Part shown: piece after piece, positions 12,947 to 35,729 of the stretch
How the letters are laid out: each line of letters opens with the position of its first letter
Numbering within the stretch: position 1 is the stretch's first letter
Virus genome (UHGV): UHGV-1361184
Direction: 5' to 3' (one strand)
Origin: a virus
DNA length: 39,532 bases
Notes under the pieces: generated by a model
Databases searched by the model: none
Seen by the model: only the letters and a program-made list of their open reading frames with translations
What the model was told of the DNA's origin: nothing
Program-made: the position numbers and the translations under genes

Positions 12947-13687
12947 ATGCATCAAACTTTAGCCAACGCAACGTTTCAGGTCATTGCAGGTGATTCTCGT
13001 GGTAGTGGGTTCAGCTTTATGCGAGAAGATCTGGTCGTAACCAATTTTCATGTTGTCGCCACCTGTTGTGACTTACAGAGCATGCGTCAAATCAATAATG
13101 TCACCCTTCAAACTGAAGCTAATGAGCATATTGGTGCTCAAATATTGCATGTTGATGGTAGTAACGACTTTGCTATCATGCAATTGCAATCCCCCCTTCC
13201 TGGCGGAAGAACAGTCCTTCAACCATCTGCTGGGTTTGCTCCATCCAGGGGCAGAAAAGTAATTTTTGCAGGATACCCGCATGGGATACCTCTGTTACTA
13301 ACAAGTGAGGCAATTATTTCAGCACCGATGGAGCATGGCCGATTTACGCTTGATGGAATGGTTAATGGGGGGAACTCAGGAGGACCTATTATTGATCGAG
13401 ATTCGGGAGAGTTAGTAGGTATCGTCACCCAGCGTAGATATATAATGGGCGATCAGGCTGATGCTTTCAGCCAAGAAATAGCCCAACTGCGACAATATCT
13501 TTCTTCAGCAAGTCTGCATGGAAGTGTTGAGATCATGGGTGTTAATTTCGGGCAAATGGCGGACATGTTTGGTAGATCGCTACAGATTGTTTCGGACATG
13601 ATGTCGCTGAATGCTAACTCCGGAATTGGTATTGGATTTTCAATCCAGCCCATCGTTGATGTGATCACATCTTTCCCTACGAAATAA
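12947..13687 (+). CDS. Cytoplasmic trypsin-like (S1/HtrA-type) serine protease with uncharacterised C-terminal region
   Basis: Catalytic-triad motifs in order: TNFHVV (His), DFAIMQL (Asp), GNSGGPI (Ser); no signal peptide; AT-rich. Confidence 0.75.
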   Translation: MHQTLANATFQVIAGDSRGSGFSFMREDLVVTNFHVVATCCDLQSMRQINNVTLQTEANEHIGAQILHVDGSNDFAIMQLQSPLPGGRTVLQPSAGFAPSRGRKVIFAGYPHGIPLLLTSEAIISAPMEHGRFTLDGMVNGGNSGGPIIDRDSGELVGIVTQRRYIMGDQADAFSQEIAQLRQYLSSASLHGSVEIMGVNFGQMADMFGRSLQIVSDMMSLNANSGIGIGFSIQPIVDVITSFPTK

Positions 13688-30119: not shown

Positions 30120-31556
30120 ATGACAGACATTACAGCCAATGTGATCGTATCGATGCCTTCGCAACTCTTTACTATGGCCCGCTCTTTTAAAGCCGTAGCT
30201 AATGGCAAAATTTATATCGGTAAAATTGACACTGACCCAGTAAATCCAGAAAACCAGATTCAGGTTTATGTGGAGAACGAAGACGGCTCTCACGTTCCTG
30301 TTTCTCAACCAATCATCATTAACGCAGCTGGTTACCCCGTATACAACGGACAGATTGCCAAGTTTGTAACTGTGCAAGGCCATTCTATGGCTGTTTATGA
30401 TGCTTACGGCGTTCAGCAGTTTTATTACAAGAACGTGTTAAAGTATGATCCTGACCAGTTACGGCAAGTATTTATTGGCCCTGATGGAAAGGGTCTAGAT
30501 AACTTCTTTGGCGGCGGCGGCTGGACCGTGGCAAACGCTTCAACGGAGAACATCTATAATACCGCTGACGACACCAACAATAACGCACTACGCTGGCGCT
30601 ATGATGTGCCATCGACAGATAATCAACTCCCGATCGCCTATCTCAAGAAAACAATCACAACTACCAGGGATCCGGCTGCAGGAGGAAAGCCAGGCCGGTG
30701 GGATGAAGGCACTATTTACTCTCATGTAAAAAAACTTGGCGGCTCGGCATATGCGGCTGGTATAACCAGCATGTTTGACGCCACTGATGGAACAGGAGAT
30801 AGCGTTTCAATACACGCAAGGGCAAACGGTCGTCGTCCTCACGTTGTCGGCGGACAAGAGGGGTCGGGGGTCTGGGGATTGTGGTCGTTTGCTGTCGCTA
30901 CCCCGTCAGACGGGACATGGATTAAGCAGATGTTGGGGCTGGAGATTGACTGCATCAACAACGGACAGGCAATTCCATTCCCTGTGCCAACTGGTCAAGG
31001 TGCATATATCGGAGCACAGATAACCGCAGTTAATGGCATTTGCTCACATGGTCTTGAGATTGGCGCTGGTTCTGGCGCGTCATGGCACCGCGGTATTTTC
31101 ATCAGACAAGGCGCTATAACCCCATCAAATACATTCGCTGGCACAAGTTGCATTGAACTTGAAGGTGGTGTTTTTAATAAACGTGTTGGTGGGCTTAATT
31201 TCGGGAAAGGTTATTTTGACTACGGCATTAATTTTGCCAAGCCATCAGAAGATTACGCAAGCCTTGCTGCAATCATCATGGGTGAGGGAAACAGGATTTA
31301 CATGGGGGATTCTGTTTCATCGGCAAATTACATCGCAAAGGTAGCCGGTCAGTCCGTCTTAAACTTCCAGAACTTATCTATCGCCATTAACGGAACTAAA
31401 GTAATAGGCCCGAGAGTGACTGGGATCTTTGCACTCACTGGCACTGCTGACGGAGCAACGAAAAACACTGAAACAATGACACTCCAGGAATTAGCAAGGT
31501 ATGTTAAAAAGGGTTTTGATGCCCTTATCGGTCATGGCTTATTTAGCCCAACATAA
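30120..31556 (+). CDS. Tailspike: P22-like N-terminal head-binding domain fused to a short divergent receptor-binding domain
   Basis: N-terminal ~115 aa ([11 protein letters not shown]...[30 protein letters not shown]...[14 protein letters not shown]...VLKYDPDQ) matches P22 gp9; remainder (478 aa total) unlike P22. Confidence 0.8.
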
Positions 31557-31566
31557 TAGGAAAAAT

Positions 31567-31728
31567 ATGAATAAGCAAACTATTCAGTACATCATGCAAT
31601 TTATGCTGCGCGTTAATTTAACCGGGCATGAAGTTCCAGCTTTCAATGAAGCAATGAACGCTTTACAGGCTGAGTTAGATCGCCCTGAGGCATCAATGCC
31701 GGAGGTCAAAGATGGCTTTGACAAATAA
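31567..31728 (+). CDS. Small ORF (53 aa) downstream of tailspike
   Basis: AGGA RBS then ATG 31567; MNKQTIQYIMQFMLRVNLTGHEVPAFNEAMNALQAELDRPEASMPEVKDGFDK. Confidence 0.35.
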   Translation: MNKQTIQYIMQFMLRVNLTGHEVPAFNEAMNALQAELDRPEASMPEVKDGFDK

Positions 31729-31954
31729 TAACCAAGGGGCGCTATATATACGAGTGGAGTTGCCGCGCGTTTACGGCAAGTATCGTGTGCAGTACGACCT
31801 GATCCAGTATGTAGACCATCCAATAACTGGTGAAAAAGCAGAGGTCGGCAGGGAGGTTATGGAATGTGACTATGATCTGGATGGTCCTAACATCTTCGAG
31901 CAGTGTTACGAGCACGCAAAGAAAGAGTTGCCTTATGCGAAAATTGATTGCTAG
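31712..31954 (+). CDS. Hypothetical protein (80 aa)
   Basis: ORF overlapping the previous small ORF; followed by a hairpin; no motif recognised. Confidence 0.4.
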   Translation: MALTNNNQGALYIRVELPRVYGKYRVQYDLIQYVDHPITGEKAEVGREVMECDYDLDGPNIFEQCYEHAKKELPYAKIDC

Positions 31955-31987
31955 TTAAATTTTCAGATGCACATTTATGAGAGTAAA

Positions 31988-32009
31988 AAGGCGGGCATAA
32001 TCCCGCCTT
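31988..32009 (-). terminator. Intrinsic terminator after the glycosyltransferase gene
   Basis: 8-bp stem AAGGCGGG/CCCGCCTT with loop CATAAT, followed on the minus strand by T5. Confidence 0.6.
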
Positions 32010-32012
32010 GTC

Positions 32013-33140
32013 TTACTGGAAATAGGACTCGTTTTTCTTTCTGTTAAGCTTAGAGCCAGTTCCTTTATGCCCGGCAGTAACGTGAAACTCCCATTCGTTA
32101 TTCTGCAGTGCGCTTTTTGTTAATCCGTAGAACCTTACTAAGAAACCACATTCAAGATTGTAATCTGGAAATCTAGCGACAACATCTGAGCGCTGAATTT
32201 TTCCTTCCAGGAATCCAGGAACAATCTCCTGACCTATGCGAAGATTGAAAAACTCCTGAGCTACACTCTCAGTTGGAACACACCAACCCGTGAACACACA
32301 TGACCCATCGTCTTCTCTTATGCGGTCCACATACCCATGCCATGTTATTTTTATTTCATCATGGTCAATGGTTAAATCCTGATTTAGATTAAGACCAATA
32401 TATTTAAGATATTCGTAAACATCTTCCATAACAAAGAACTTAAATGGGCTGGCAGCTTTAGAGGAGGCATGCATATCGTAATATTCAGTTTGTGTCATCA
32501 AGAATTTTTTGACCAGGTGATGACCGGCGCCCTTGAATGCTTTTAGTGCTTCAATATCATTGACGTCAACAAGGCCCTCTAACTTATTGCGCGCGCTTGC
32601 GATGTAGTCATCATAGTTCTTATGATGGAAGTGTAGGTAAATAATATCTGTATCAGTCTGCAGTCCTGATTCCACCTCTCCGCGATGAAACCCATTCCCT
32701 AGGGCAGTAATTCTTGATTTAGGGGAAAACACTTTTTCAGGCTTATGGCTCAATGCGAACTCTTTGGCATTGAGTGGATGGTTGCCATATGTGTATTTAA
32801 TTTTAAGGGTTGAGTCTATATCTTTGTATTTTAGTAATTCATCCCTCACATCATCACTTGAGAGAGAAACCTTACCCTTTGAAAACTCAACCCCAACAAA
32901 TTCGTCGCAATCAAGTGGAAGCATGAAATCATAATCATGGACACGCTTTAATTCTTCGTATTTATCTACGAAATAGATATGCCTTGTATTGAAATCGTCA
33001 AAAGTGTTTCTGTCATAAATAACATGCAACCCCTTTTGGCTATATTTTTCCAGAACGTCAGTACACCTCTGGTCGGCAGAGCCGTTATCGTAGACGTATA
33101 AATTTTCCAGGCCAAAAAGCTCAGCAGATGCAGTATCCAT
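32013..33140 (-). CDS. Putative GT-A-fold glycosyltransferase; apparent frameshift at the 5' end (N-terminal segment in the 33193..33138 frame)
   Basis: ENLYVYDNGSADQ (DxGS.D-type) and FMLPLDCDEF (DxD-like) motifs; AT-rich; MKVAVLMMQKDEYRLLEPW with AAGGA RBS lies just upstream in another frame. Confidence 0.55.
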   Translation of the reverse strand: MDTASAELFGLENLYVYDNGSADQRCTDVLEKYSQKGLHVIYDRNTFDDFNTRHIYFVDKYEELKRVHDYDFMLPLDCDEFVGVEFSKGKVSLSSDDVRDELLKYKDIDSTLKIKYTYGNHPLNAKEFALSHKPEKVFSPKSRITALGNGFHRGEVESGLQTDTDIIYLHFHHKNYDDYIASARNKLEGLVDVNDIEALKAFKGAGHHLVKKFLMTQTEYYDMHASSKAASPFKFFVMEDVYEYLKYIGLNLNQDLTIDHDEIKITWHGYVDRIREDDGSCVFTGWCVPTESVAQEFFNLRIGQEIVPGFLEGKIQRSDVVARFPDYNLECGFLVRFYGLTKSALQNNEWEFHVTAGHKGTGSKLNRKKNESYFQ

Positions 33141-33360
33141 GGCTCAAGAAGCCGGTACTCATCCTTCTGCATCATCAAAACAGCAACTTTCATCTCAAGA
33201 TCCTTTTAGTGTGTGTGGCATGAATATATCACGGCGCATTCTCCTGAGGGAGAAGCGCTGGTTGCAAACTGCTAAATCTCATGGATTCATCCTTGATAGG
33301 CCTAGCCATCTTGATCTGAATCTACTTTAAAACTACTGTATATAAAAACAGGTAAAAGGA

Positions 33361-33609
33361 GTGCAGATCATGCCCCGCAGTCACGACATTCACGCCTCAT
33401 TTGTGGCCGCAATACAGCTAAACCCCAAGGGCTACAGGTGCTTACGCACAGAAGACTTTATCCGCGAGCTGGCAAAGGTCCACTGGCATTTCAGCCGGGC
33501 CGACGCCAACGAGTGGATAGAGCGCTATCAGCCCGACTTCACCGACAAGACAACTGACGGAACCGACAATCACTACTGGATCCTGCGCAACATGGGGAGG
33601 GTTCACTGA
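33361..33609 (+). CDS. Hypothetical 82-aa protein, translationally coupled to the downstream UmuD-like gene
   Basis: Stop overlaps the next start (TGATG); gene size and position reminiscent of impC. Confidence 0.45.
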   Translation: MQIMPRSHDIHASFVAAIQLNPKGYRCLRTEDFIRELAKVHWHFSRADANEWIERYQPDFTDKTTDGTDNHYWILRNMGRVH

Positions 33610-33959
33610 TGGGCTTTCCTTCACCGGCGGGAGACTACGTAGAGCAGCGGTTAACACCGGAGCGTATCTGCGGGATCGGCATGCACAGCCGCATCCTCGA
33701 AACATCATCCGGCTTTGCCGTTATCGAACCGTGCACCAGGCTGGTACAGAATCAGGTTCTGCTGATTTTATCTGGCGGCAGAACGCAGTTTGCCAGGGTA
33801 ATGGGTAGGGCATTAATCACTGATGATGGTGAAGCGATCGAAGGGGAGGAGGCGGAGGAAGTTGAGGTGCTGGGGCGCGTGACGTTCTTCATCAACAGCG
33901 CGCTACAGGATGACAGGGTGGGTGATGGGTGGCATTACGCCACCTTTTCATCAAGCTAG
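33609..33959 (+). CDS. UmuD/ImpA-like (peptidase S24 fold) protein, apparently lacking the catalytic Ser/Lys motifs
   Basis: N-terminal GFPSPAGDYVEQRL is the hallmark UmuD/MucA/ImpA motif; no SGDSM or VKK motif found downstream. Confidence 0.5.
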   Translation: MGFPSPAGDYVEQRLTPERICGIGMHSRILETSSGFAVIEPCTRLVQNQVLLILSGGRTQFARVMGRALITDDGEAIEGEEAEEVEVLGRVTFFINSALQDDRVGDGWHYATFSSS

Positions 33960-34249
33960 TTCGCCCACCACTGCATCATTTCTCTGCGCTTAATGTAGCG
34001 GATGCATCACTATCACATAGTGATGGTTCATTACTGCTTTGTAGAATGGATAGAGAACTGAGGATAAAAAGATATCCCAAAACCCCAAAATCTCATCTTT
34101 AGGATTTGCAGAAAGGGAGGCGTGAACAGATACCTGCGCATGAAGACGGAACTAGTCCAGATGTGATATTTGTGGTGATCACATACATCATCAACGATGC
34201 TCGTTATGGTGAGTTTGATGACTACCCGCTGAAGTGAAAATAGTGTTGT

Positions 34250-34542
34250 GTACCAAATTGCGTACCAAACTAAAATCACAAATCATGAAACCCTTGTTCA
34301 TGGCGGTTCTCAGGGGTATTGCGCGTAATCGTGAAAGAGGAAGGTAGGTTGTTTATCTGTGTCTGTCATTGTCTAGTATTGTCCACTGTAGTTAATTAAC
34401 TGTCTGTTATAACTCGAAAAACAACCCTTTTTTAACCTGAGTATGTCTACGAACGTCAAATATAGTTGTTTACTGTGCGCTGTTGTCCATGTGATATTGT
34501 GTACCAGATGTGTACCAAACCATTATTTTTGAGCGTACCAAA
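34250..34542. repeat. attP region with five direct arm-type repeats GTACCA(A/G)A
   Basis: Copies at 34250-34257, 34262-34269, 34501-34508, 34512-34519, 34535-34542, flanking an AT-rich stretch just upstream of int. Confidence 0.5.
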
Positions 34543-34550
34543 TATTATTT

Positions 34551-35729
34551 ATGGCTATAAGCGACACAAAACTGCGTACTATTTATGGTAAACCATATTC
34601 GGGCCCACAAGAAGTGGCTGATGCCGATGGCCTCAGCGTACGAATTTCACCGAAGGGGGTCATCCAGTTCCAGTACCGCTATCGCTGGCATGGCAAGCCT
34701 AATCGACTTGGGCTTGGTCGATACCCATCCCTGTCTTTGAAGGATGCCAGACAGATCACTGCTGACTTGCGAAAGCTCTATTTCTCAGGAACGGATCCAC
34801 GCACTTATTTTGAAGAGAAGGTGGAGAACTCCATGACGGTCGCCCAGTGTCTCGACTACTGGTTCGACAACTACGTCTCTACAACTCTCAGAGAAAAGAC
34901 CCAGGCACTTTACCGATCAACGGTTATGAAGCGCATGCATGACGCCTTCCCTAATCGTCCGGCATCTTCTATCACGGTTAAGCAATGGGTTGACCTGCTT
35001 ACCGAAGAAGAAAAAGATAATCCACGCCGAGCAAGACAGGTGCTAAGTCAACTAAGATCAGCAATTAGTTGGTGCATGCGGCGCCAGTTGATAGATAGTT
35101 GCGCAATTATGAGCATCCAGCCAAGGGACTTCGGCTCCCGCGCTGAGGTAGGGGATCGGGTACTGTCGTATCACGAACTGGCTAAGATTTGGCTTGCTAT
35201 TGAAAGAAGCCGTGCGTCTACGTCAAATAAGCTCCTTCATCAGATGCTTATGCTGTGGGGGGCGAGGCTCTCAGAGCTTAGGCTGGCAACAAAGACAGAA
35301 TTTGACCTGCTGGACAACGTATGGACCGTACCGAAAGAGCATAGCAAGATGGGTAATGTTATCCGCCGTCCAATCTTCGAACAAATTAAGCCTTTTCTCG
35401 AAAAGGCCATGACAACGTACAATGATGTTCTTTTCCCTGGAGAAGACATAAACAAACCGATCAGCATCGCTGCAGCCAACCGATTCGTAAACAGAATAAG
35501 GGGAGGGATGGATCTAGGTTACTGGCGAACACATGATTTCAGAAGAACGCTTGTTACACGTCTGTCTGAGATGAATGTCGAGCCTCATGTCACTGAGCGA
35601 ATGCTCGGTCATGAACTTGGCGGGATAATGTCCGTGTACAATAAACACGACTGGATAGAGGCTCAGCGTAAAGCGTATGAGCTTCACGCTGATAAATTGT
35701 TCTGGCACATCAGGAGCATTTCTGATTAA
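34551..35729 (+). CDS. int: Tyrosine integrase (P4-type, DUF4102-like N-terminal arm-binding domain)
   Basis: 392 aa; N-terminal GLSVRISPKGVIQFQYRYRWHGK...LGRYPSLSLKDAR; C-terminal catalytic region HDFRRT...LGHELGGIMSVYNKH. Confidence 0.9.
   Translation: MAISDTKLRTIYGKPYSGPQEVADADGLSVRISPKGVIQFQYRYRWHGKPNRLGLGRYPSLSLKDARQITADLRKLYFSGTDPRTYFEEKVENSMTVAQCLDYWFDNYVSTTLREKTQALYRSTVMKRMHDAFPNRPASSITVKQWVDLLTEEEKDNPRRARQVLSQLRSAISWCMRRQLIDSCAIMSIQPRDFGSRAEVGDRVLSYHELAKIWLAIERSRASTSNKLLHQMLMLWGARLSELRLATKTEFDLLDNVWTVPKEHSKMGNVIRRPIFEQIKPFLEKAMTTYNDVLFPGEDINKPISIAAANRFVNRIRGGMDLGYWRTHDFRRTLVTRLSEMNVEPHVTERMLGHELGGIMSVYNKHDWIEAQRKAYELHADKLFWHIRSISD

What the first reader, a model, noticed from the sequence alone, without database searches (positions are those of the whole stretch)
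32013..33193. AT-rich glycosyltransferase-like gene with an apparent -1 frameshift near its 5' end
The 375-aa minus-strand ORF has GT-A hallmarks (YVYDNGSADQ, LPLDCDEF) but begins only 11 residues before the first motif. A well-placed start with AAGGA RBS (ATG 33193) encodes MKVAVLMMQKDEYRLLEPW in another frame, which would supply the missing first beta-strand and helix if joined at about 33140 (sequence GAGCCATGGATACT). This is either a pseudogenised conversion gene, a sequencing error, or a programmed shift. The gene lies between tailspike and attP, the usual place for O-antigen conversion genes in P22-like phages, but it is a single soluble-looking enzyme rather than a gtrABC set.
Basis: partly seen in the sequence, partly recalled or inferred. 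Interest (0 to 1): 0.5.

Follow-up and report, generated by a model that had tools for sequence, protein, structure and literature searches.

The report
Frameshift-broken prophage glycosyltransferase gene
A sugar-transferring enzyme gene carried by an E. coli P22-like phage, in the place where such phages keep genes that alter the host's surface sugars, has lost one base near its start and is almost certainly dead; this is an ordinary pseudogene in a family nobody has studied.

Summary
On the minus strand a gene starts at ATG 33193 (AAGGA 7 nt upstream), reads 22 good codons, then changes frame. The rest (to stop 32013) is the 375-aa ORF.

The cause is one missing A between 33127 and 33126 (CTGCATCATGCTGAG became CTGCATC-TGCTGAG).

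- **Intact relatives.** Every homologue inspected is a single frame of 392-393 aa. One intact allele matches the window from about -100 to +400 apart from that A.
- **Not a sequencing error.** Two other samples carry the same deletion in a different phage backbone, and the site is not a homopolymer.
- **Not a programmed shift.** There is no slippery heptamer or stimulatory structure. The lesion removes the codon of near-invariant His23.
- **Truncated ORF.** It lacks strand beta1 and most of helix alpha1 and scores below Pfam's threshold.

The intact protein is a soluble GT-A enzyme (PF13704; nearest solved fold GT92 GalS1) with a C-terminal beta-sandwich. It lies between the tailspike and attP (core 34324-34336, in sbcB). 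Distant relatives sit in polysaccharide synthesis clusters.

A cytoplasmic surface-glycan-modifying role, like TarP rather than gtrABC, is inferred and untested. Verdict: recent pseudogene, low interest.

The parts
33128..33193 (-). 5' segment of the glycosyltransferase gene in its original frame: codons 1-22, MKVAVLMMQKDEYRLLEPWILH. It encodes strand beta1 and most of helix alpha1.
   Evidence: sequence and ORF. (identical to the N-terminus of intact homologues; M8, E12, W19 invariant). (beta1 = residues 3-9, alpha1 = residues 13-27 in the model of the 90%-identical intact homologue).
33126..33127 (-). Site of the lesion: one A is missing between these two bases (intact CAT CAT GCT, window CAT C-T GCT). 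This destroys the codon of near-invariant His23 and shifts the frame.
   Evidence: Alignments. Six IMG/VR loci all carry the A.
32013..33125 (-). Remainder of the gene (codons 24-393 plus stop) in the -1 frame, with no further stop or indel. The mechanical 375-aa ORF begins upstream of this at ATG 33140.
   Evidence: (the repaired gene is 1182 nt with a single terminal stop; dN/dS 0.12 against the closest intact allele). (all invariant residues retained).
32966..33193 (-). What translation from the real start would now produce: a 75-aa product with 22 native residues followed by out-of-frame sequence and a premature stop.
32901..32912 (-). The D95-C96-D97-E98 (DxD-type) motif of the GT-A domain, invariant in the family.
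   Evidence: D95 C96 D97 E98 F99 invariant. (aligns with the DVDEY of GT92 GalS1).
32073..32342 (-). C-terminal beta-sandwich domain (residues about 285-374 of the intact protein). It is present only in the closer homologues and is replaced by TPR or other tails in others.
   Evidence: strands 285-374. (alignment). (TPR families in one member).
33201..33205 (-). Shine-Dalgarno-like AAGGA, 7 nt upstream of ATG 33193.
   Evidence: Conserved in intact homologues.
33223..33231 (-). Possible extended -10 promoter element TGaTATATT. This rests on inference from the sequence only.
   Evidence: Read. Conserved in all alleles. Not reported by the consensus scan, which requires a -35 hexamer.
31988..32009 (-). 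Terminator-like GC-rich hairpin followed by a T run, directly after the stop codon.
30120..31556 (+). Tailspike: a P22-type head-binding domain (residues 1-113) plus a receptor-binding domain that travels with the glycosyltransferase.
   Evidence: PF09008, 5e-66. (residues 113-478 are 32% identical to a siphovirus tail fibre next to the same GT in E. coli E3)..
34324..34375 (-). attP. The exact 13-nt core TTTCACGATTACG lies at 34336-34324, preceded by a phage-borne imitation of the 5' end of sbcB.
   Evidence: comparison of the window, the integrated form L004 and the empty site L010. (the flank is E. coli sbmC-dacD-sbcB).
34551..35729 (+). Tyrosine integrase.
   Evidence: PF13356, PF00589..

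Best explanation
The locus is a recently inactivated allele of a prophage-borne, soluble GT-A glycosyltransferase gene.

Shown:
- Deletion of one A between 33127 and 33126 removes the codon of near-invariant His23 and puts the remaining 370 codons out of frame.
- Translation from the genuine start (ATG 33193, good RBS) therefore ends after 75 residues.
- The only way to make the rest is initiation at ATG 33140, which has no evident Shine-Dalgarno. That product would lack beta1 and most of alpha1, the first beta-alpha unit of the nucleotide-binding fold.
- The deletion is a real, inherited mutation, not an assembly artefact.

Inferred: the intact enzyme uses its DxD motif and a cytoplasmic nucleotide-sugar to add a sugar to a surface polysaccharide precursor, an O-antigen or capsule unit, on the cytoplasmic face of the membrane. 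This would change the receptor that the linked tailspike recognises. That is lysogenic conversion or superinfection exclusion by a single soluble enzyme, as with TarP of S. aureus phages, rather than the periplasmic three-protein gtrABC route. In this phage the function is lost.
For: **The lesion**
- The window differs from intact 1182-nt homologues by one missing A.
- The closest intact allele (L009, ERR8084925) is identical from about -100 to +400 apart from that base.

**It is real**
- The same deletion is present in L004 (ERR2138677) and L005 (ERR2137976).
- In those loci the cassette 30530-34336 has only two base differences from the window (at 30529 and 33857), while the tailspike head-binding domain and the ant gene differ. 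That means a second phage backbone.
- The context is not a homopolymer.

**Intact is the norm**
- Intact copies include three RefSeq E. coli prophages and six IMG/VR loci.
- Most members of the two 90% clusters are full-length at 392-393 aa: 8 of 12 in cluster 1, and 11 of the 15 listed of 148 in cluster 2. The shorter entries are mostly partial or short-contig products.

**The N-terminus is needed**
- M8, E12 and W19 are invariant and H23 is at least 90% conserved in 36 sequences down to 27% identity.
- The W-x3-H-x4-G motif even aligns with plant GT92 GalS1.
- All 150 best representatives begin at profile positions 1-8.
- One representative that starts at position 8 has the beta1 codons upstream in frame.
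- Pfam falls below threshold without the N-terminus.
- In the model, beta1 is residues 3-9 and alpha1 is residues 13-27.

**The event is recent**
- There is no other stop or indel, all invariant residues are retained, and dN/dS is 0.12 against the nearest intact allele, compared with 0.06-0.08 among intact pairs.

**Function**
- All 36 family members match PF13704.
- The AF2 model has pLDDT 87.9.
- No transmembrane segment.
- The gene lies between the tailspike and attP.
- The tailspike receptor-binding domain and the GT are found together in a podovirus and in a siphovirus.
- Full-length distant homologues lie in polysaccharide clusters, next to tandem GT2 enzymes, NTP-transferases, UDP-glucose dehydrogenase, RgpF, Kdo genes and GT61.
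- TarP is a prophage-encoded enzyme that glycosylates wall teichoic acid polymers (PMC9650247).
Against: - No reads were available, so within-sample heterogeneity at 33126/33127 could not be examined.
- ERR2137976 and ERR2138677 may come from one study, so the number of truly independent lineages carrying the deletion is small: two backbones.
- The 375-codon remainder is perfectly intact. That fits recency but would also fit some retained use.
- The substrate, the sugar and even the class of acceptor are untested.
- The family has no characterised member, no PHROG and no NCBIfam model.
- The closest structural neighbours include peptide S-glycosyltransferases (SunS, ThuS).
Confidence: 0.85

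Rival explanations
1. Sequencing or assembly error: the phage really has the intact 1182-nt gene and the missing A is an artefact of this contig.
For: A single-base indel is the commonest assembly artefact. The contig has modest coverage (the name gives cov 27). No identical allele with the A was found.
Against: The same deletion occurs in assemblies of at least two other runs. Those runs carry the cassette on a phage with a different tailspike head-binding domain and ant gene. The site, CATC|TGC, is not a homopolymer. The exact 375-aa product was called on 9 contigs.
Confidence: 0.03
2. Programmed -1 ribosomal frameshift or transcriptional slippage: the full-length enzyme is still made at some level by recoding in the overlap 33143-33110.
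For: The two frames overlap and a T5 run (AGC TTT TTG, 33118-33114) lies in the overlap, where weak -1 slippage of tRNA-Phe is conceivable.
Against: All homologues inspected are single-frame, so recoding is not a property of the family. There is no X XXY YYZ heptamer. T5 is too short for efficient transcriptional slippage; that point rests on established knowledge. The downstream RNA folds no better than shuffles (z = -0.88). Any shifted product lacks near-invariant His23, reading H-L-L-S-F-F-G or H-S-A-E-L-F-G in place of H-H-A-E-L-F-G.
Confidence: 0.03
3. The 375-aa ORF from ATG 33140 is a functional, N-terminally shortened enzyme.
For: The ORF is long and intact, keeps the DNGS and DxD motifs, and still scores 27.3 bits against PF13704.
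Against: It has no Shine-Dalgarno before 33140 and lies wholly inside the translated 75-aa ORF. It lacks beta1, most of alpha1, and the invariant M8, E12 and W19. None of 35 aligned homologues or the 150 best representatives starts there. Its score is below Pfam's cut-off.
Confidence: 0.05
4. The gene is broken as described, but the intact enzyme does not modify O-antigen or capsule. Instead it glycosylates a peptide or protein (as SunS and ThuS do) or phage DNA.
For: SunS and ThuS are among the best structural matches. Small conserved ORFs, including a Cys-containing 80-aa one, flank the gene. Phage GT-A enzymes that glycosylate DNA are described (bioRxiv 10.1101/2023.12.21.572611, seen).
Against: Distant full-length homologues sit in four different polysaccharide clusters. 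There is no glycocin export or maturation gene next to it. Of the ten other window ORFs scanned, the only DNA-modification gene found was a Dam-type adenine methylase, and nothing suggesting a 5hmC pathway. The gene has its own terminator, is divergent from the late operon, and sits in the classical conversion slot.
Confidence: 0.15

Closest known systems
TarP, the prophage-encoded wall teichoic acid glycosyltransferase of S. aureus, and its chromosomal relative TarS
   Different: Sequence identity is only 12-16%. The Pfam family differs (PF13704, not PF00535). The host is Gram-negative, so the acceptor would be an undecaprenyl-linked O-antigen or capsule intermediate rather than poly-ribitol phosphate. 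No activity has been shown. The copy in the window is broken.
gtrABC O-antigen glucosylation cassette of P22 and of Shigella and E. coli prophages
   Same: It occupies the same genomic slot, between the tailspike and attP/int. The presumed biological role is also the same: serotype conversion and blocking of superinfection (PMC7685785; for the slot in relatives).
   Different: gtrABC is three membrane proteins acting through Und-P-glucose in the periplasm. Here there is one soluble protein with no transmembrane segment and no gtrA or gtrB homologue in the slot.
GT92 galactan synthase GalS1 (PDB 8d3t)
   Different: It is a plant Golgi enzyme with 15% identity. Only 1 of 36 family members touches the GT92 Pfam model (E 6e-4).
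Pfam PF13704 Glyco_tranf_2_4
   Same: All 36 aligned family members match it (best E 1.4e-11). The repaired window protein scores 33.7 bits against a cut-off of 27.5.
   Different: The Pfam model covers only about the first 100 residues. The subfamily seen here (442 clusters at E<=1e-30) has further conserved motifs, such as GFH, HxH and K204-L205, and in the phage branch a specific C-terminal beta-sandwich.

Membership tests
PF13704 Glyco_tranf_2_4 / GT-A glycosyltransferases | Score above Pfam's gathering cut-off (27.5 bits) | tested here: met
   The repaired 393-aa protein scores 33.7 bits and the 90%-identical intact P0001 scores 39.5 bits. The 375-aa ORF as encoded scores 27.3 bits, just below the cut-off.
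PF13704 Glyco_tranf_2_4 / GT-A glycosyltransferases | GT-A (single Rossmann-like) fold | tested here: met
PF13704 Glyco_tranf_2_4 / GT-A glycosyltransferases | Acidic DxD-type metal and nucleotide-sugar motif | tested here: met
   D95-C96-D97-E98 are invariant in 36 sequences and present in the window at 32912-32901.
PF13704 Glyco_tranf_2_4 / GT-A glycosyltransferases | Glycosyl transfer activity | not testable with these tools
   This needs an enzyme assay. No characterised member of this subfamily was found.
CAZy GT92 | Match to the GT92 sequence model (PF01697) | tested here: not met
   Only 1 of 36 members matches, at E 6e-4. The window protein and P0001 do not match. The structural resemblance alone is strong.
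gtrABC serotype-conversion cassette | Three membrane proteins: GtrA flippase, GtrB bactoprenol glucosyltransferase, and a polytopic GtrC | tested here: not met
   It is a single protein with maximum 19-residue hydropathy of 0.6. The other ORFs in the slot are 53, 80, 82 and 116 aa and have no Gtr matches.
Lysogenic-conversion (moron) gene of P22-like phages | Location between the tailspike gene and attP/int, as a separate transcription unit | tested here: met
   Tailspike at 30120-31556, GT at 33193-32013 on the opposite strand with its own terminator, attP core at 34324-34336, integrase at 34551.
Lysogenic-conversion (moron) gene of P22-like phages | Expression from the prophage and a change of the host surface | not testable with these tools
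   This needs a lysogen transcriptome and LPS or capsule analysis.
Programmed -1 ribosomal frameshift | Slippery X XXY YYZ heptamer at the frame junction | tested here: not met
   The overlap 33143-33110 contains none; there is only a T5 run.
Programmed -1 ribosomal frameshift | Downstream stimulatory RNA structure | tested here: not met
   Region 33112-33040 has an MFE of -15 kcal/mol, z = -0.88 against shuffles.
Programmed -1 ribosomal frameshift | The frameshift is conserved among homologues | tested here: not met
   All other alleles are single-frame.

The most novel reading that the evidence does not exclude
The intact form of this gene defines an unstudied route of phage serotype conversion in E. 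coli. A single soluble GT-A enzyme (PF13704, GT92-like, with its own C-terminal beta-sandwich) would decorate the O-antigen or capsule precursor in the cytoplasm. It would be inherited as one cassette with the tailspike receptor-binding domain whose receptor it masks. This would be a Gram-negative counterpart of TarP. The frameshifted allele would then be a natural loss-of-conversion variant that has nevertheless spread to a second phage backbone.
Probability: 0.35. Interest if true: 0.5.

Novelty: new member of a known kind. Interest (0 to 1): 0.22.

Why it matters
For the frameshift itself, little. It shows that this phage, and a close relative, carry a dead accessory gene, so annotation should mark 32013-33193 as a pseudogene rather than a 375-aa protein.

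The family behind it is of more use. It is a rare, uncharacterised, soluble glycosyltransferase that occupies the serotype-conversion slot of E. coli P22-like prophages. It also moves together with a particular tailspike or tail-fibre receptor-binding domain.

If it modifies O-antigen or capsule, it could account for some side-branch sugars whose transferase genes are 'elsewhere in the genome' (PMC7685785). It would also provide a matched natural ON (L009 allele) and OFF (window allele) pair for testing.

Tried and rejected
- **Phage database, DNA and protein:** no match for the gene in 50,697 deposited phage records. The rest of the window matches P22-like coliphages such as IME10.
- **PHROGs, NCBIfam, PADLOC:** no family for the GT. 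A defence-system role therefore has no support.
- **T6-to-T5 slip in CTTTTTG:** this was my own first guess at the lesion. The alignments reject it. The T run has the same length in intact alleles, and the missing base is the A of CATCAT.
- **Exact-pattern scan of one genome per species:** 0 hits, so it gave no information on species range.
- **Kapi1 paper (argW P22-like coliphage with O-antigen modification):** its candidate genes are acyltransferase-like or unknown, not this GT.
- **Literature search for the RefSeq accessions of the intact homologues:** nothing found.
- **Representatives that 'start at M7/M8':** these raised the question whether beta1 is dispensable. The one checked has the beta1 codons in frame upstream (MVQSVCMVMQKNE), so it is a start-codon call and not a shorter protein.
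- **dN/dS as a test of post-deletion decay:** uninformative about time since the deletion. It only shows that most of the divergence accrued under constraint.

Full report
**1. What is in the sequence**

On the minus strand an ORF starts at ATG 33193-33191. AAGGA (33205-33201) lies 7 nt upstream, and the ORF reads MKVAVLMMQKDEYRLLEPWILH... before running into a stop at 32966 (75 aa). A second ORF, 53 nt out of register (that is, in the -1 frame), runs from ATG 33140 to the stop at 32013 (375 aa). It contains YVYDNGSADQ and LPLDCDEF.

The gene has 40.4% GC against 47.4% for the window, and the protein has no hydrophobic stretch (maximum 19-residue Kyte-Doolittle value 0.6). The factual content of the finding is therefore correct. 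Two details are off:
- the first motif starts at residue 15 of the long ORF, not after 11 residues;
- the junction is not at about 33140.

**2. The lesion**

Three complete E. coli genomes carry an 80-82% identical gene annotated 'glycosyltransferase family 2 protein'. It is 1182 nt and 393 aa in one frame.

In the alignment the window lacks exactly one base. The intact sequence is CTG CAT CAT GCT GAG and the window reads CTG CAT C-T GCT GAG. The gap falls between window positions 33127 and 33126. The window gene is 1181 nt.

A closer intact allele (94% amino-acid identity) comes from sample ERR8084925 (L009). It is identical to the window from about 100 nt upstream of the start to about 400 nt into the gene, except for this A.

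A pattern that tolerates zero or one base at the site found six IMG/VR contigs. All six carry the A. Five have 392-393-aa ORFs, and the sixth runs off its contig end.

**3. Error, recoding or mutation**

The window is ENA contig ERZ1745393 NODE_55 (L003 is 100% identical). The exact 375-aa product was called on nine contigs.

Two were fetched from other runs: L004 (ERR2138677) and L005 (ERR2137976). Both show the same gap.
- Across 30530-34336 they have only two base differences from the window, at 30529 and 33857.
- They diverge by 53 substitutions in the tailspike head-binding domain, and by about 7% in the ant gene.
- So the broken cassette sits on at least two phage backbones.

Together with the non-homopolymer context, this makes an assembly artefact very unlikely.

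Programmed recoding is not supported either.
- The family is single-frame everywhere else.
- The overlap has no X XXY YYZ heptamer, only a T5 run.
- The downstream RNA folds no better than shuffles (z = -0.88).
- The deleted base belongs to the codon of His23. That residue is invariant in 19 and at least 90% conserved in 36 homologues down to 27% identity, so no slip downstream of it can restore the native sequence.

**4. Can the 375-aa ORF work?**

- All 35 aligned homologues, and all 150 best of 2354 representative clusters, begin at profile positions 1-8.
- One representative that appears to start at Met8 has the missing strand encoded in frame just upstream.
- M8, E12 and W19 are invariant. 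The W-x3-H-x4-G motif aligns even with plant GT92 GalS1.
- In the AlphaFold model of the 90%-identical intact protein (pLDDT 87.9), residues 3-9 form beta1 and residues 13-27 form alpha1. The short ORF replaces residues 1-23 by MDTAS.
- It has no ribosome-binding site of its own and lies inside the translated 75-codon frame.
- Its Pfam score drops to 27.3 bits, below the 27.5 cut-off. The repaired protein scores 33.7 bits.

I conclude it is non-functional.

The rest of the gene has no other defect. dN/dS against the nearest intact allele is 0.12, against 0.06-0.08 among intact pairs. The inactivation is therefore recent relative to the divergence of the alleles.

**5. What the intact gene is**

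- *Family.* All 36 family members match PF13704 (Glyco_tranf_2_4). There is no PHROG, NCBIfam or PADLOC model.
- *Size of the family.* The subfamily is modest: 442 clusters at E<=1e-30 among 1.84 billion representatives.
- *Conserved residues.* D36-N-G-S, D95-C-D-E-F, G168-F-H170, H188/H190, K204 and H226 are all retained in the window allele.
- *C-terminus.* A beta-sandwich (about residues 285-374) is confined to the closer homologues. Others carry TPR or other tails.

**6. Context**

The integrated form L004 abuts E. coli sbmC-dacD and the start of sbcB. Comparing the empty site, the integrated form and the window places the attP core, TTTCACGATTACG, at 34336-34324. It is preceded by a phage-borne imitation of the sbcB 5' end.

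The order is therefore:
- tailspike (30120-31556, +);
- two small ORFs;
- GT (minus strand, with a terminator-like hairpin at 32009-31988);
- two small ORFs;
- attP;
- integrase (34551-35729).

No gtrA, gtrB or gtrC is present.

The same GT with the same small ORFs sits next to a siphovirus tail fibre in E. coli E3. The C-terminal 370 residues of that fibre are 32% identical to the window tailspike's receptor-binding domain. So the receptor-binding domain and the GT travel together.

More distant full-length homologues (29-35% identity) lie in chromosomal polysaccharide clusters:
- with tandem GT2 enzymes, an NTP-transferase, UDP-glucose dehydrogenase, GT1, GT61 and sulfation genes;
- with RgpF and a GT2-GT1 fusion;
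- with another tandem GT2 set;
- with Kdo synthesis genes and GT61.

A 49% homologue lies beside a phage lysozyme.

**7. Mechanism**

Shown: the gene is a DxD GT-A enzyme, soluble, phage-borne, in the conversion slot, and broken here by a 1-nt deletion.

Inferred:
- The protein has no signal peptide and no membrane segment, and nucleotide-sugars are cytoplasmic. The intact enzyme must therefore act in the cytoplasm.
- Genomic association points to a surface polysaccharide precursor as the acceptor.
- The likely benefit is alteration of the receptor of the linked tailspike.

It would thus work like TarP, a prophage enzyme that glycosylates wall teichoic acid (PMC9650247), and not like gtrABC, the route known for E. 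coli prophages (PMC7685785). Peptide or DNA glycosylation remain minor alternatives.

**8. Verdict**

This is a real and correctly spotted frameshift. The best explanation is a recent, inherited single-base deletion that has turned an accessory glycosyltransferase gene into a pseudogene. As such it is ordinary. The uncharacterised family it belongs to is the more interesting object, but nothing here tests its function.

Noticed in passing
window 33088-33236: There is an island of 96-98% nucleotide identity covering the promoter region, the RBS and the first 35 codons of the GT. It separates the window from the PK12 and E3 alleles, which are only about 78-80% identical on either side. The boundary near 33088 is sharp. 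This could be a recombination junction, or a 5' region constrained at the nucleotide level.
   Followed up: partly
window 33609-33959 (+) and 33361-33609 (+): A 116-aa protein begins with the UmuD/HumD N-terminal motif GFPSPAGDYVEQRL (phrog_3469 'UmuD-like', E 3e-45). It matches HumD only over its first 21 residues and has no recognisable GDSM serine-protease part. It overlaps by one base an 82-aa partner (phrog_3893, unknown function). The pair is conserved next to the GT in the E. coli prophages.
   Followed up: partly
window 34324-34375: attP carries an imitation of the first codons of sbcB (ATGACAGACACAGATAAACAACCTACCTTCCTCTTTCACGATTACG, against the chromosomal ATGATGAATGACGGTAAGCAACAATCTACCTTTTTGTTTCACGATTACG). 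Integration into the 5' end of sbcB would therefore regenerate an sbcB start with several changed residues.
   Followed up: partly
window 30120-31556; L002 7872-9374: The tailspike is short (478 aa) and its receptor-binding part (residues 113-478) has no PHROG match beyond the head-binding domain. It is 32% identical to the C-terminus of a tail fibre of a TipJ-type siphovirus prophage in E. coli E3, which carries the same GT cassette.
   Followed up: partly
window 31567-31728 (+) and 31712-31954 (+): Two small overlapping ORFs (53 and 80 aa, the latter with three Cys) lie between the tailspike and the GT. They are present in every copy of the cassette, in podovirus and siphovirus alike, and match no family. 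The weak PADLOC REase_II hit at E 0.006 is probably chance.
   Followed up: no
whole window (ENA ERZ1745393 NODE_55_length_39587): The contig is 39587 nt and the window 39532 nt, a difference of 55. That looks like a trimmed k-mer overlap of a circular assembly. int and the GT cassette are adjacent across attP, so the sample held the excised or packaged phage form rather than only a prophage.
   Followed up: no
window 12947-13687 (+): A 246-aa trypsin-like serine peptidase (PF13365, E 4e-20) is encoded just upstream of the terminase region of a P22-like genome. This is an unusual accessory gene for that position.
   Followed up: no
L001 8919-9287 (E. coli PK12 prophage at argW): In PK12 the GT is intact, but the adjacent tailspike is annotated as a truncated pseudogene with the head-binding domain only. 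So the cassette decays in different places in different prophages.
   Followed up: no
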